The notes: generated from the sequence alone by a model not told the origin. Positions 18,682-63,906 are shown, counted from the first letter of the stretch. The stretch: DNA of 64,000 nucleotides from Eledone cirrhosa (GCA_964016885.1 OZ024747.1:77066001-77130000); one strand, 5' to 3'. Numbers and translations are program-made.

Positions 18682-18920
18682 GAGAAAACACAGGTAAGCA
18701 TTAAGAGAAGGATTATTTTCCAGGTATTTACGACCGTTTCATTGGTAAGTGCACCCTTAATGCTTACCTGTGTTTTCTCTTTTATACTTTATACTCCAAG
18801 ATTGAACGGAATTCTTACAAACTTGTGGAGTTACCCTTAACCGTACATTGAAACCGTCCATGAAACTGGCTTTCTTGACCACGAACTGGATCACAATAAG
18901 CAATTTTCAGCTTCCCTAAC
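18682..18920. mobile_element. Fold-back mini-element with 3' half of a hammerhead
   Basis: 24-bp arms 18682-18705 / 18756-18779; minus strand GAAACGGTC; bulged hairpin 18793-18831; (TA)n both sides. Confidence 0.6.
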
Positions 18921-19112
18921 TATATATATATATATATTTATATATATATATATATACAAATTCACTTTTTCTTGATGAAGAACTAACGTCAATCTGATGA
19001 GAAATTCTTTTCCATTTTCCACAAGCATGAAATTAATAAGACTTTGTGCAATCTTTTTCGGTGATTGTCTACTTTTTAAATTTGGAGTTATATATAGTCT
19101 ATATATATATAT

Positions 19113-19600
19113 GTAGGTCATGTCACTGTGTGAAGCTTTCTCATTAAAGCTTGACTGTTAGATAACTTTAAAGATACTCGAAGCAGCATGTTCGATAATA
19201 TATAGATTTGAGGAAAATATAGCTACGATTTCTAGTAGGTCGTGTCACCATGTAGAAGCTTTCTCACTAATGCTTGGCTGTTAGCTAACTTTAAAGACGC
19301 ACGAAGCAGCATGTTCGATAATATATAGATTTGAGGGAAATATGACTACGATTTCTAGCAGGTCATGTCACCACGTAGAAGCTTTCTCGTTAACGCTTGG
19401 ATGTTAGCTAACTTTAAAGACGTACAAAGCAATATGATCGATCTACTGCATCATTCTCCACACCTCTTCAAGTGGTTCTTGCTTGTCTTTCTAGGATGTT
19501 TGGCGCCAGATGTTCTTTGGCCAACCCGTTTTCAGTTTTCTATTTTTTCCGGTGTCCTTATCATTCTAGTCTTTGCATGTCAAGTCTATAAGCGTCTTAC
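19113..19600 (-). mobile_element. Second decayed RTE-like 3' end with ~122-bp tandem tail, homologous to 15700-16325
   Basis: Reverse complement aligns by eye (gggttggccaaagaacatctggcgccaaacat vs ggggcggccctaaaacatctggtgccgaacat; atatttccctcaaatctatatattatcga in both). Confidence 0.6.
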
Positions 19601-20177
19601 AGGCCTTTCTCTTCCTACTTACCTTAATTTCAGGTCAGTCATGTTTTTGTTAACTTTATCGTTCCTGTCTATGTTTTGTTACATGTTTAACAGTAACGTT
19701 GGTATGTTGCTTGCTTGAGTAGTTACTATTTTAGCAAATATCTGCTTGGTTGTTGTAGTTGTCCCTACATCCAACAGCCAACAGTTAAAGGATCGTAGTC
19801 TGACCTTCCGGCAATAAACCATCTTTTCTCACAGACGCCAAAAAGTCTTACGACTGTACTACAAAGATAATTGGAACATCTATCGAAGTTCAATATAATA
19901 TAATACTTATATATACTTTTCATTTATATATATATATATATATATATATATATATATATATATATATATATATATATATATATATATATATATATATATA
20001 TATATATATATATATTTATATATATATATTTATTTAAAGGTTAAACAAGGTTCAATGAATAAATCAAAGAATAAAGTTTTACAATAGATTGGAAGCACTC
20101 CACAGAAAAATGGTTTTCCTGAGTTATTAATATTAATTCAAAATATTAACAAAAATAGACATTCGTGTGATCAAGTA

Positions 20178-20244
20178 TATTTTATTATACATATTTCAGA
20201 GGTACTGGGCTATCTTCAACAGTACGTCCTCATCAGATAAAATA
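20178..20244 (-). ncRNA. Hammerhead motif in the inverted pLTR
   Basis: Reverse-complement copy of 23349-23415. Confidence 0.75.
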
Positions 20245-20615
20245 AGATGATGCATGACATACCCTGACTAAGTAGATGGTTAAAATTCAGTCATGGTAGT
20301 GAATAAGATATGACAAAACTCAATATTTATATACCTTAAGATTGAGACATGAAAAAATTACATATAATACAGAGGGTGCGTGTGAGAAAGCTTATAAAAA
20401 TACATAATAATAAACAACAACTAATATAATAGAAATTTACATAACTGTTAGAGAGATTCAAATAATTTAAATTATTGAAGAAAGAAGAAAGATAGAGAAA
20501 TAGATGAGGAAAAAATAGTTACTAGAAGTATAGAAGTATCTTATGCACGAAAGCAAAAGAAAATTGATTAAGGATAGAGAGACAAGGAAGAAGAATTTTT
20601 ATAGTATAAAGCATA

Positions 20616-21320
20616 CATAAATACCGTTCCATATTTAATAGACACATAATTAAGCTTTCTAATTCTACAACTATGAATATGGCCCAGAACATTGCAAAAA
20701 TAAATAGTAGAATTCTAAATCGTAACCAACAAACAATTAGGGATAATGAATATAATAACACTAGCAATATTAATACTAGGAATAACAATAACATTAATCT
20801 AAGCACTATCAATAGAACACTTCAAAGTACTAGCAATGTTAATGTCAATTGTCCAATTTATAGTAGTAACAATAAATCGAAATGTAATTGTAGAAATAGA
20901 TCAAATTGCCCTCTGCAAAATAATTGTTTGGATAGCAATCTGGTCTATAAATGCACCGTAAAAGCAAATAATATCACATACAACTATATTGGTGCAACTT
21001 CATCGACATTTAAATTAAGATTTTCGAATCACAAATGTTCTTTTTCGAATCCTAATAAGAAATCTTCGACTTCTTTATCACAACTTATATGGTCACTAAA
21101 AGACAAAAATTTAAAATATTCGATTTCTTGGTCAAAGCTGTGTAATAGTCGAATCTACTTGAATTCTTCAATATCACCTAACTGCAATCTTTGTACTATG
21201 GAGACCCTATTAATAATTACTAATTATGAAAATTCAATTAACAAAAAAAGTGAATTATTCTCAAATTGCCTACATAAAGCTTCTTCTACATTCCAAGCCT
21301 CGCAAAAAGTCAGGAAATAA
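20616..21320 (+). pseudogene. PLE C-terminal linker and GIY-YIG endonuclease (RT lost by truncation)
   Basis: CNCRNRSNCPLQNNC..LVYKCTV..NYIGATSSTFKLRFSNH..TSLSQLIWSLK..ISW..CNLCTME..INKKSELFSNCLH; preceded by HKYRSIFNRHIIKLSNST. Confidence 0.85.
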
Positions 21321-21547
21321 ACATTGAATAAAGAAGTTCTAATTTTTGACGTTTCTTATCAACTGAGTGCGTAAAATGATACTATAACAGATTATAAAAC
21401 CTTATAATAATTTTTATTCATTTACGATATGATTAATGTTAGATTAAGGGTTCTATATAAATATATAAACATATAGACTGTTAACATGATCTCTTGATGA
21501 ATATGCATATTATTTGATTGTATAAATACATTTAATTTTGTCGGGAT

Positions 21548-22640
21548 TTTTGTATTTTTTTAAATGTATAGCTTATATGGTTAACAGTTATAAGGAACCG
21601 TAGACCATTCATTTATTTATTTTGAATATGTTGTTTTTAAGATTCAAGATGTTTGATTTATATATTTATGGTATATATGTCGTACACAATCGTAGTCGAC
21701 AAACTTTTCCCACTTAACTTGATGTAAAATTTCAATTATAACATTATTAACAGTAATTGTATTTATTATTTATTATATGTATATAAATCACTAATATCGT
21801 CTTAAGTTTTAAACAGAATACTCTGTATGTATTTAGACAAATGTGTATATCTAGTTTAATAACATCCTTCTAGGTACATTTATAAGTGCCTTAGATACTT
21901 AAGGACATTCTAGTGTTATAATTGTTAAATATTTTCTAAATTATATAATGATTATTTTTTAATTTAATTTTTTTTTATATAATTTAAATTTGGGTTACCT
22001 TCGGATTGATGAAAATCTTAAGTCTTTTCTTTCTCATGTTTGCAGGCACTTTAAATATGATATTATACTATAATATAGATCCTTAAAAATGTTCTTGTAT
22101 TTTTAAATTATATAGCTTAGATATTTGGCACTTATAGGATCGCAAACCATTTATTTATTTATTTTGAATCTGTGTCTTATCTTTTATGATTCATGAAGTT
22201 TGATTTGTATATTTATAGTATATATGTATTACATGATCCTAATATAATAATTGACATAAAACCTTACTTTTAACAATATTAACAGTAACTTATTTATTAT
22301 ATTATATTATATATAACTGACTAATATCGTCTTAAACTTTAAACAATATACTATTTGTATAAATTTAGACAAATGCCTATATCTAGTTTAAGTATAATTA
22401 TAAGGCTTTTGGATACTTTAGGGCATTCTAATTGTTAATTTTAAATTTTAAATTTTAAATTTTTAAAGTTATAATTGTAATTATATAATGATTATTTTTT
22501 AATATAAAATTTCTTTAATATAAATTTTTTTAATATAATTTAATATGGATTACCTTCGGGATGAAGAAAATATTAAGTCTCTTCTTTCGCATGCTTGCAA
22601 ATACTTTAAATATGATATTATACTATAATATAAATACTTA
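21548..22640 (+). repeat. ~545-bp diverged tandem duplication inside the PLE 3' UTR
   Basis: ctaatatcgtcttaa.ttttaaaca (21791, 22321), ttaccttcgg (21995, 22550), tttaaatatgatattatactataatata (22050, 22605). Confidence 0.8.
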
Positions 22641-62430: not shown

Positions 62431-62767
62431 TTCTCCACAGGGTAAAACGTAAAAGAGAGAGCCTCTTTACATTTGTCAAAGTATTCATTTTCATATTTAT
62501 GCAGCTTCTGTTAAATCTTGAACTGTTTCTGTATATCAGCTGTCTACTGCACTATTTAGTAGCTAACTGCTTTTCTGATAAATAAAAATATTAACGACCA
62601 CACGCGTTATAGCGCGTTATTCCCGAGAAGTGAATATTTAATATATTTTCAAGATGCATTAAAGCGAATTCGCGTACTTCAAGCTTCAAGTTCGCATATA
62701 AAGCGAACAGAGTGTATATATGTATATATGTGTGTGTATATATATATATATATATATTAATAATAAT

Positions 62768-63045
62768 TATTTCTACTTTTGGCACAAGGCCAGAAATTAT
62801 CCCAGTGTATTACTGGTACTTTATTTTATCGACCCCGTAAGGATGAAAGGCAAAGTTAACCTCGGCGGGATTTGAACTCAGACCATATAGGGCCGTAACT
62901 CTTTGCTTGCAAAGCATGGCGTCCGACCCTCTACCGATACTGCCAATCCACCGCCCTTTTATATTAATAATAATATATTAATAATTGTTTCTACTTTTGG
63001 CCCAAGGCCAGCAAATACCCAGTGTATTACTGGTACTTTATTTTA
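62768..63045 (-). mobile_element. Deu/Nin-type SINE (62768-62956) plus a short second 3' fragment (62985-63045)
   Basis: Nearly identical to 43480-43662. Confidence 0.8.
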
Positions 63046-63113
63046 ATAATATATTAATAATAATATATATTAATGATAATAAAAAGAACGATTTGTTATA
63101 TCTTCATTAGGTT

Positions 63114-63212
63114 TATTGAATAGTGACGCGCGTTTCACTATTGATCAGCTCAAGGTTCGATCTGTATTGATCTGGTCAGACTCTGGAATCAAAAGCTCGT
63201 CGGACTTCAATA
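63114..63212 (-). ncRNA. Decayed hammerhead motif with long stem II
   Basis: Minus strand: tattgaagt-CCGACGA-gcttttgatt...gatcaatagt-GAAACGCGCGTC-actattcaata; palindromic stem III, GUC site, core U to C. Confidence 0.65.
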
Positions 63213-63257
63213 TATATATATATATATATATATATATATATATATATATATATATAT

Positions 63258-63445
63258 TCGAAAGGAAGGTTTTTTTAACATATCCCACACTGGTAAAAAT
63301 ATAGGAGAAACAAGTTGAAAATGCAATTGGAGTCGTTAAGAAGAATTTATTTACAATAATTTAGAACCTGACAACGGGTTGGTTTTCGCTCAGCGATTTG
63401 TAGTCTTGATAACCGCAAACGAGTAACAACCCGTTGTCAGGTTAT
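63258..63445. mobile_element. Fold-back mini-element related to 16858-17103
   Basis: aacctgacaacgggttg / caacccgttgtcaggtt arms; ttgaaaatgcaattggagtc resembles ttgaaaatacaactggagtc at 16878; (TA)n both sides. Confidence 0.55.
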
Positions 63446-63499
63446 ATATATATATATATATATATATATATATATATATATATATATATATATATATGA

Positions 63500-63906
63500 A
63501 AAGTTATATTTAAATTGTTGGGTTACAACTAGTAAATATTTGTAACTGATATAAAAGCACTCGACAAGTATTTGGAGTATATTTACGATATTAAATAAAT
63601 GGAAACTATATTTATAAAACCATATTTATTTCATCATATATATTTCAGGGATATCATATTAACAATATGCTATGCCTTCCTCAGACAAAATACAATATAG
63701 ACAGTTTTATAGATAAATAGATTTGACATACCGTTCAAATACAAGTCGATGTTGAACGGTATGTCAAATCTATTTATCTATAAAACTGTCTATATTGTAT
63801 TTTGTCTGAGGAAGGCATAGCATATTGTTAATATGATATCCCTGAAATATATATGATGAAATAAATATGGTTTTATAAATATAGTTTCCATTTATTTAAT
63901 ATCGTA
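63500..63906. mobile_element. Mini-element containing a perfect 155-bp-arm palindrome with two hammerhead motifs
   Basis: Arms 63584-63738 / 63752-63906, 13-nt spacer; plus-strand HHR 63798-63863 (tattttgt-CTGAGGA...GAAAtatataTG-atgaaata). Confidence 0.85.

What the first reader, a model, noticed from the sequence alone, without database searches (positions are those of the whole stretch)
18793..63580. Second conserved RNA-like motif downstream of the hammerhead: RCTC-stem-TN-GAGY bulged hairpin with covariation
Seen about 25-80 nt 3' of the HHR cleavage site in otherwise unalignable families: ACTC-CGGAGT..ACTTCG-TC-GAGT (41753-41792), ACTC-TAC-TTCG-GTA-TT-GAGT (47660-47679), ACTC-TACT..AGTA-TT-GAGT (58796-58819), the same with TC (42886-42908), ACTC-TGC-AAT-GTA-TT-GAGT (58163-58181), GCTC-TGTA-CTA-TACA-TA-GAGC (26452-26472), GCTC-TGTA-GCC-TACA-TA-GAGT (minus, ~17180-17200), ACTC-CAAG..CTTG-TG-GAGT (18793-18831), ACTC-CAA-ATAC-TTG-TC-GAGT (minus, ~63559-63578), GCTC-TACGG..CCTTA-TC-GAGC (minus, 60910-60957); imperfect versions at 16770, 20095-20125(-), 43785. 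The upper stem varies freely but pairs; CTC/GAG and a 2-nt 3' bulge starting with T are constant. Inference: a cis-acting recognition element for the PLE RT/endonuclease or an HHR partner domain. I do not know of a published description of it.
Basis: partly seen in the sequence, partly recalled or inferred. Interest (0 to 1): 0.8.

Follow-up and report, generated by a model that had tools for sequence, protein, structure and literature searches.

The report
Twin RNA hairpins mark retrotransposon ends
A pair of small bulged hairpins, conserved in Hydra-type Penelope-like retrotransposons of this genome and of other animals, sits a few bases beyond each of the two places where the elements end, and likely tells their telomerase-related reverse transcriptase where to start copying, which would explain the long-unexplained 'tail' of these elements.

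Summary
The motif is real (16 hits against 1.4 in shuffles) and covaries in a strict 2-nt-bulge register (65 of 68). It belongs to Hydra-clade Penelope-like elements (PLEs). Intact elements carry two copies in tandem, 55-100 nt apart, between the hammerhead and the start codon, in this genome and in contigs from other assemblies. Element ends map just 5' of the hairpins: 138 of 144 microsatellite junctions lie within 16 nt upstream of (or 2 nt into) hairpin 1 or 2, mostly 3-6 nt upstream. The PLE 'tail' is the stretch between these two sites. In inverted insertions one arm ends at site 1 and the other at site 2 (21 of 21 pairs in family B, 17 of 20 in family C). Best reading: RNA signals that position reverse-transcription start sites (0.7). 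A DNA nick signal or an RNA cut signal is not excluded. No Rfam match, and no description in the papers searched. Against: family C's second hairpin is degenerate, a Neptune-like family has a tail without the motif, and RNAalifold found no consensus fold.

The parts
16770..16790 (+). hairpin 1, imperfect, A3/A4-type family; partner inverted arm 16539-16660 (minus) ends 6 nt before its own hairpin 1
17181..17201 (-). hairpin 1, family D; hammerhead core at 17292 (minus); arm ends at site 2 near 17135
18793..18831 (+). hairpin 1, family H (long loop); inverted arm 18675-18705 ends 6 nt before it; tail ends about 128 nt after its start; hairpin 2 not seen in 30 loci
20031..20253 (-). inverted pseudo-LTR arm of family A1 with hammerhead core (20236), imperfect hairpin 1 (20097-20124) and tail ending at site 2
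20610..21320 (+). 3' remnant of the Hydra-type ORF (cysteine linker and GIY-YIG region) of a 5'-truncated family A1 element
   Evidence: no Pfam hit; assigned by comparison with full-length copies
23340..23463 (+). 3' pseudo-LTR of the same element with hammerhead core (23357); ends at site 1, 5 nt before where hairpin 1 would begin
26452..26472 (+). hairpin 1, D-like family, right arm; both arms are tailed, an exception to the one-arm-per-site rule
41753..41792 (+). hairpin 1, family E; hammerhead core at 41647; tail-less inverted arm 41311-41425
   Evidence: hairpin 2 and ORF in L180
42886..42909 (+). hairpin 1, family B
43785..43803 (+). hairpin 1, imperfect, family C; inverted arm 43679-43721 ends at site 1, this arm at site 2
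47660..47679 (+). hairpin 1, family G; tail-less arms of the family end 4-6 nt before it; second site not located
58163..58181 (+). hairpin 1, family C; hammerhead core at 58097; arm ends at site 2 (58228)
58668..58870 (.). complete inverted mini-insertion of family B: minus arm 58668-58726 ends at site 1; plus arm 58731-58870 holds hairpin 1 (58796-58819) and ends at site 2
60911..60956 (-). hairpin 1, family F (long loop)
   Evidence: hairpin 2 and ORF in L200-L209
63492..63912 (.). inverted insertion of family A4: minus arm 63492-63708 holds hammerhead core (63684) and hairpin 1 (63559-63578) and ends at site 2; plus arm 63782-63912 holds hammerhead core (63806) and ends at site 1
   Evidence: full junction with hairpin 2 and ORF in neighbouring locus L044

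Best explanation
The motif is one of two tandem bulged hairpins in the 5' leader of Hydra-clade Penelope-like retrotransposons, each lying a few bases 3' of one of the element's two genomic ends, and it likely acts on the element's RNA as a docking signal that would set where the reverse transcriptase starts copying. Shown: order hammerhead, hairpin 1, hairpin 2, start codon; covariation; ends 2-9 nt 5' of each hairpin, at junctions with TA-dinucleotide microsatellites that share 1-4 bases with the element; tail length equal to hairpin spacing; one arm per site in inverted insertions. Inferred: the RT-endonuclease binds the lower stem, bulge and 3' flank; the endonuclease cuts both strands of the microsatellite; each 3' end anneals to the AU-rich bases just 5' of a hairpin and primes a minus-strand cDNA, one from site 1 (no tail) and one from site 2 (tail, which contains hairpin 1); the two cDNAs are then joined head to head by microhomology. 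Whether one RNA and one protein dimer serve both sites is inferred from the strict pairing and from the dimer predicted for another clade; it was not tested.
For: Tandem pair upstream of the ORF in families A1-A4, and found as predicted just beyond the tail end in B, D, E and F. In other assemblies, 42 of 48 loci with 5' sequence have at least one site and 33 of 48 at least two; spacing 55-83 nt. Sites picked without any pairing requirement pair at the first upper position in 65 of 68 cases in the 2-nt-bulge register against 4, 4 and 11 of 68 and 20 of 65 in other registers; C-G 45, U-A 18. Both-side changes 66 against 28.9 +/- 4.1 on an unfitted alignment, 0 of 500 shuffles. Ends: 66 at site 1, 72 at site 2 and 6 elsewhere among 144 microsatellite junctions; family B offsets -5 and -3 in nearly every arm; 10 of 12 informative ends in other assemblies lie 2-5 nt before a hairpin (after dropping 8 contig ends, 1 run-through and 5 simple-repeat or internal matches). 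Hairpin 2 lies outside both kinds of end, so it cannot act from the inserted product. Internal initiation at two sites that match the tail ends, a need for RNA 3' of the start sites, extension of both target strands and a predicted dimer are reported for the Poseidon element PAc (PMC11167929; parts 1-2 of 4 of the main text read).
Against: No biochemical or RNA-read evidence. Family C ends sharply at its second site (-8 or -9 in 18 of 19) although only a degenerate four-pair hairpin without upper stem or bulge is there (model R1 finds only hairpin 1 in L183); its site 1 ends are split between about -5 and -12. A Neptune-like family in the same genome has two ends 41 nt apart and no model hit, and the PAc RNA printed in Fig. 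S1 lacks the consensus by eye, so the motif is not the general cause of PLE tails. RNAalifold predicted no consensus structure on either alignment. Single-sequence folding gives lower-stem pair probability about 0.6 and first upper pair 0.26, equal on both strands and similar with DNA parameters; G-U outnumbers A-C only 13 to 5. One window palindrome has two tailed arms (26190-26510). Family G shows no second end close by and family H no run-through copy in 30 loci each.
Confidence: 0.7

Rival explanations
1. The hairpins act on DNA (donor copy, or single-stranded cDNA) as recognition sites for the GIY-YIG endonuclease, which nicks 3-6 nt away and so resolves the intermediate at either of two sites.
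For: Craig et al. ascribe the tail to endonuclease-mediated resolution (PMC8557442, passages); Frangieh et al. cite earlier work in which the Drosophila Penelope tail was needed for endonuclease recognition; folding energies do not prefer RNA or the sense strand; Arkhipova et al. favour an antisense template for inverted junctions (PMC3846280, passages).
Against: In PAc the two tail ends were shown in vitro to be RT start sites on RNA. Junctions share 1-4 bases with the microsatellite, as expected of primer annealing. The 3' flank is not conserved as a DNA palindrome: +4 is variable while +5 is nearly fixed. Slight G-U excess on the sense strand.
Confidence: 0.14
2. The hairpins direct an RNA cut or a transcript end 3-6 nt upstream (a second small ribozyme, or cleavage by the element's protein or a host nuclease), and ordinary 3'-end priming follows.
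For: Genomic ends alone cannot tell internal initiation from cutting followed by end initiation; the offsets are very sharp in family B; lower stem, bulge and flank are conserved in sequence as catalytic cores are.
Against: The bases at the would-be cut site are only AU-rich, not conserved; a cut at site 1 would part hairpin 2 and the ORF from the template, yet tandem full-length copies run through both sites (L181, L187); PAc initiates internally on uncut RNA.
Confidence: 0.1
3. The hairpin is a folding partner of the hammerhead, or a translation or packaging signal, and the ends fall near it for another reason (AU-rich spacers that match the target).
For: It always lies downstream of the hammerhead in full leaders and hairpin 2 is 15-58 nt from the start codon in 36 of 40 loci; upstream spacers are AU-rich.
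Against: AU-rich stretches are everywhere in these leaders, yet 138 of 144 microsatellite ends fall in two 19-nt windows of 360-390-nt references; tail length follows hairpin spacing from 67 to 100 nt over seven references; a satellite of both hairpins has no hammerhead.
Confidence: 0.05

Closest known systems
Hydra clade of C-terminal-endonuclease Penelope-like elements (Craig et al. 2021, PMC8557442)
   Same: Host elements have the listed protein features, a hammerhead in the pseudo-LTR and TA-repeat targets. The motif is visible by eye in the paper's own consensus sequences: clearly in 3 of 6 (Hydra-2_Amil, Hydra-1_Ajap with both hairpins, Hydra-2_Ajap), degenerate in the other 3.
   Different: The paper's main text has no 'hairpin' or 'bulge' and uses 'stem' only for hammerheads; its hammerhead table stops before the motif. 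Elements here reach 3.5-4.7 kb and tails are 55-128 nt, against under 3 kb and 30-40 bp in the paper.
Poseidon element PAc: internal RT initiation in an 'AC-rich stem loop' (Frangieh et al. 2024, PMC11167929)
   Same: Two start sites downstream of the hammerhead that equal the tail ends; AT-rich targets; both strands extended; RNA 3' of the start sites required.
   Different: Other clade; initiation is within the stem loop there, and 5' of a hairpin here; no duplicated signal, covariation or one-arm-per-site rule is reported; the printed PAc RNA lacks this consensus by eye.
PLE 'tail' on one of two inverted pseudo-LTRs (Arkhipova et al. 2013, PMC3846280)
   Same: [quoted passage not shown]
   Different: Described as optional and unexplained; here it is delimited by two structured signals and nearly obligatory on exactly one arm.
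RT-positioning stem-loops in other systems: telomerase RNA template-boundary and template-recognition elements, hepadnavirus epsilon, 3' stem-loops of stringent LINEs (all recalled, not tested)
   Same: A small, partly bulged helix next to the template positions an RT; PLE RTs are sister to telomerase RT (PMC8557442).
   Different: No sequence or structure match was tested or found (Rfam); here the helix is duplicated, lies 3' of the start, and is itself not copied from that start.

Membership tests
Hydra-clade PLE | single ORF, RT followed by C-terminal GIY-YIG endonuclease | tested here: met
   intact frames of families B (784 aa stop to stop) and C (758 aa), read by eye, align end to end with ~700-aa homologs
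Hydra-clade PLE | RWK-type N-terminal motif and DKG changed to DKT | tested here: met
   alignment A1 against the description; the third residue of the first motif is R in families A, B and C
Hydra-clade PLE | CxCX5C linker; CCHH absent; CxxC and CxH beside the conserved E and N | tested here: met
   families B and C in A1, by eye
Hydra-clade PLE | hammerhead in the pseudo-LTR | tested here: met
   canonical cores in families A, C, D, E; variant cores in B and F by eye; Rfam gives no hit at gathering score; cleavage not tested
Hydra-clade PLE | insertion into TA-dinucleotide repeats | tested here: met
Hydra-clade PLE | generally short (under 3 kb) | tested here: not met
   family B unit about 3.5 kb, family A1 about 4.7 kb, owing to long 3' regions; the paper gives this as a tendency
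Hydra-clade PLE | placement in the Hydra clade of an RT tree | not tested
   no tree built; homolog P0054 matches the translation of Hydra-2_Amil closely by eye and is 41% identical to family B
Any Rfam 15 family | covariance-model match | tested here: not met
   0 hits at gathering score in the window; 3 weak snoRNA hits far below gathering in 10 other loci; only the best 150 of 327 weak hits were listed and none of these lay on the motif
PAc-type AC-rich initiation stem loop | RT starts inside an AC-rich stem loop | tested here: not met
   ends lie 2-9 nt 5' of the stem in AU-rich sequence
RT initiation signal (functional class) | bound by the RT and needed to set the cDNA start | not testable with these tools
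   needs in vitro retrotransposition

The most novel reading that the evidence does not exclude
Hydra PLEs carry a duplicated RNA 'RT promoter' on one transcript: a dimeric RT-endonuclease docks on both hairpins at once and primes both ends of a double-strand cut, one cDNA per hairpin (programmed twin priming). This would account for the tail, the inverted pseudo-LTRs and the one-arm-per-site rule together, give a telomerase-like template-positioning helix in telomerase's sister clade, and make a ~35-nt motif a portable tag for writing any upstream RNA into TA repeats.
Probability: 0.4. Interest if true: 0.88.

Novelty: new variant of a known kind. Interest (0 to 1): 0.78.

Why it matters
How Penelope-like elements, the sister group of telomerase RT, choose their template start and form tails and inverted repeats is an acknowledged open question (PMC8557442, PMC11167929). 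This finding names the cis signal for one whole clade, gives it a covariation-backed structure and base-level start coordinates, and supplies young intact families (B: tandem near-identical copies with open 784-aa frames) with which one in vitro experiment can decide the mechanism. The motif also marks a very abundant repeat class here (about 2.6 x 10^5 copies by rough scaling of 45 model hits in 510 kb) and gives a tool for defining the boundaries of Hydra elements.

Tried and rejected
Chance or microsatellite artefact: rejected. Rfam: no match. Pfam on 13 window ORFs found two LINE-type RTs and missed the PLE remnant; a betacoronavirus domain hit on window 15653-16246 has no stretch passing on its own and was taken as a low-complexity artefact. 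First metagenome scan with one protein found nothing; the viral collection found nothing. RNAalifold gave no consensus structure, probably because of variable loops and some misaligned rows, which I did not prove. Strand and RNA-versus-DNA tests by folding energy were uninformative. Sequencing runs: no RNA holder listed, no reads laid. Dimer prediction for the protein was not run, so there is no verdict. Hairpin 2 could not be tested for families G and H. A DNA-palindrome reading of the 3' strand plus flank was dropped because the mirror positions are not conserved. I first took the elements for Neptune; the protein motifs say Hydra. Earlier findings of this scan were not consulted. Literature: 7 searches found no description of the motif; the library lacks most subscription papers (for example the 2004 Penelope endonuclease study and the 2017 papers on PLE hammerheads and Terminons, known to me only by recall or citation), Repbase and Dfam notes were not searchable, the PAc GenBank supplement could not be read, Fig. 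S2 of that paper held no text, and bioRxiv supplements are closed.
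Full report
Observation. The cited hairpins are all present. The class is enriched about elevenfold over block-wise dinucleotide shuffles (16 against 1.4 +/- 1.3, n = 60) and is specific for a 2-nt bulge with the stated first base. 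It is common across the genome: 38 strict hits in 400 kb of evenly spaced stretches and 45 model hits in 510 kb.

Host elements. The window ORF at 20610-21320 is the 3' remnant of a PLE ORF; its relatives in the genome led to full-length copies. Intact frames of families B and C align over their whole length with ~700-aa proteins at 39-54% identity and show the features by which Craig et al. define the Hydra clade (section 11 read): RWK-type motif, DKT, CxCX5C linker, no CCHH, hammerhead, TA-repeat target. No tree was built. Family names A1-A4 and B-H are my own labels.

Two hairpins, not one. Full-length copies of family A carry the motif twice between hammerhead and start codon. Window copies end just before the first hairpin (23463) or just before the second (20031). 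I therefore predicted a second hairpin right beyond the tail end of other families and searched with tail anchors followed by the 5' strand of the stem. The searches were biased to find that 5' strand, but not the rest of the hairpin or a downstream ORF. The dominant continuation held a full hairpin followed by a Hydra ORF in families B, D, E (one locus) and F. In family C it held the ORF but only a degenerate four-pair hairpin. G and H could not be tested. So 4 of 5 testable predictions were met in full.

Ends. Aligning all loci then held to seven references gave 293 alignments: 67 ran through, 144 ended at a microsatellite (66 at site 1, 72 at site 2, 6 elsewhere) and 82 ended at other sequence (13, 9 and 60; many of the 60 look like breaks between subfamilies or internal junctions, which I did not resolve). 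Sites are windows from 16 nt before to 2 nt into a hairpin. Hairpin spacing, and with it tail length, runs from 67 to 100 nt over these references. For family B, an anchor found 15,410 times gave, in the first 100 listed and counted by eye, 45 switches to microsatellite at one junction, 1 at -2, 1 inside hairpin 1 and 53 run-throughs. I fetched 20 loci with opposite-strand arm pairs for B and 20 for C, taken in list order (skipped: three B pairs, one far apart and two nested, and two C pairs). In B, 21 of 21 pairs have one arm at site 1 (offset -5) and one at site 2 (mostly -3); the script's tally shows 19 mixed and 1 same-site locus, but that locus (L341) is two adjacent mixed pairs. In C, 17 of 20 are mixed, 3 have one aberrant arm, and none has both arms at the same site. 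Longer elements follow the same rule (L032, L035, L036, L039, L040, L041). One D-like palindrome in the window has two tailed arms.

Conservation outside this genome. An alignment search gave 76 metagenome loci and 17 loci from genome bins; these are most likely animal host DNA (inference). Of 48 with at least 60 nt upstream of the ORF, 39 hold the strict motif (the middle of that output was cut). Picking sites by the 3' strand and flank only gave 81 sites against 10 in an ORF control and 10.0 in shuffles; 71 of 81 have the 5' strand upstream (control 1 of 10); 42 of 48 loci have one or more sites and 33 two or more; the first bulge base is U in 75 of 81. Among 68 distinct hairpins the first upper pair forms in 65 in the 2-nt-bulge register (C-G 45, U-A 18), the second in 46 of 65 and the third in 40 of 54, with four pair types each. 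On a plain MAFFT alignment of 62 of the 68 (three long or edge cases and three stray sites left out), both-side changes were 66 against 28.9 +/- 4.1; on the model-fitted alignment, which leans to the structure, 128 against 48.4, with rare swaps in the lower stem too. These controls ignore relatedness. The bottom pair is G-C in most outside loci and alternates G-C and A-U in the window. Ends in these loci: of 26 rows, 8 were contig ends, 1 ran through and 5 were simple-repeat or internal matches; 10 of the other 12 lie 2-5 nt before a hairpin (one of them a degenerate hairpin seen only by the model) and 2 lie elsewhere. The published Hydra consensus sequences from a coral and a sea cucumber show the motif by eye, one with both hairpins at its 5' end and a 3' end that stops just short of hairpin 1 (supplement parts 52-53).

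Controls against. A young PLE family with Neptune-type motifs in this genome has two ends 41 nt apart and no model hit in its tandem locus L323; the 7 hits among the 12 loci lie in their flanks. RNAalifold found no consensus fold. Folding does not favour a strand or RNA over DNA. Family C's second site works without a full hairpin. No RNA data were available.

Mechanism. The hairpins sit on the uncopied side of each junction, and hairpin 2 is outside both kinds of end, so the signal must act in the template or the donor. Frangieh et al. (abstract, results and part of methods read; Fig. S1 text) showed for a Poseidon element that tail ends are internal RT start sites, that RNA 3' of them is needed, that both target strands are cut and extended and that hammerhead cleavage is dispensable. 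The simplest joint reading is a duplicated RT-positioning signal with one start per target strand. Binding, dimer use and single-RNA use are inferred. Inner truncation points of the mini-insertions lie 5' of the predicted hammerhead cut site (cut site placed by eye), which fits copying of uncut RNA.

What is known. The clade, the hammerheads, the tail and internal initiation are published; the tandem hairpin, its covariation, its link to the two ends and the one-arm-per-site rule were not found in Rfam or in seven literature searches. Papers seen: PMC11167929 (parts 1-2 of 4, supplements 1-2 as text), PMC8557442 (passages, section 11, supplement parts 1, 2, 52, 53 of 59), PMC4209133, PMC3846280 and PMC12910113 (passages), bioRxiv 10.64898/2026.07.22.740005 (parts 1-2 of 5). 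Comparisons with telomerase RNA, hepadnavirus epsilon and LINE stem-loops are recalled only.

Verdict. A real, apparently undescribed, clade-wide structured motif whose position explains the Hydra PLE tail and makes the PLE priming mechanism directly testable. New variant of a known kind; interest 0.78.

Noticed in passing
L188 (G000:C2:169702000-169705000): Tandem satellite of a 183-nt unit made of family D hairpins 1 and 2 with spacers and no hammerhead, at least 5 copies; possibly a minimal parasite of the element or a template-jump product.
   Followed up: partly
L335-L374: Inner truncation points of ~200-bp inverted mini-insertions cluster about 50-70 nt upstream of hairpin 1 in families B and C, at or within the 5' half of the hammerhead; could mark a transcription start or an RT stop.
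   Followed up: partly
L181, L187; window 58668-58870: Family B hammerhead appears to have a variant core (U at position 3, A at position 8) with a long stem II; family F's core also looks variant. Read by eye, cleavage untested.
   Followed up: no
L323-L334: Very young PLE family with Neptune-type motifs (many identical 784-aa frames), 4.7-kb unit, a second upstream open frame and two ends 41 nt apart; its start signals are unknown.
   Followed up: partly
L129:2500-2700 region, L133, L135: Further motif-like pairs in a family not assigned to an ORF, and four copies of a ~590-bp tandem unit with a motif hit in L096.
   Followed up: no
window 43324-43360 (+), 14387-14412 (-), 5058-5101 (+), 42036-42063 (+): Extra strict-scan or model hits; the first two have the AU-rich upstream spacer and flank of real copies, 42036 is a truncated family F copy, 5058 may be chance.
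   Followed up: no
window 44506-47439 (+) and 50398-53271 (+): Two LINE-type ORFs (endonuclease plus RT; RT plus zinc-binding domain), unrelated to the motif.
   Followed up: no
L286-L302: Hydra PLE loci inside assemblies labelled as bacterial genome bins, several flanked by TA repeats; most likely host-animal contamination of those bins.
   Followed up: no
window 16858-17104, 41854-42041, 58868-59600: Other small palindromic insertions in TA repeats without the hairpin; some are inner parts of PLE leaders (41854-42041 matches family F), others unassigned.
   Followed up: no
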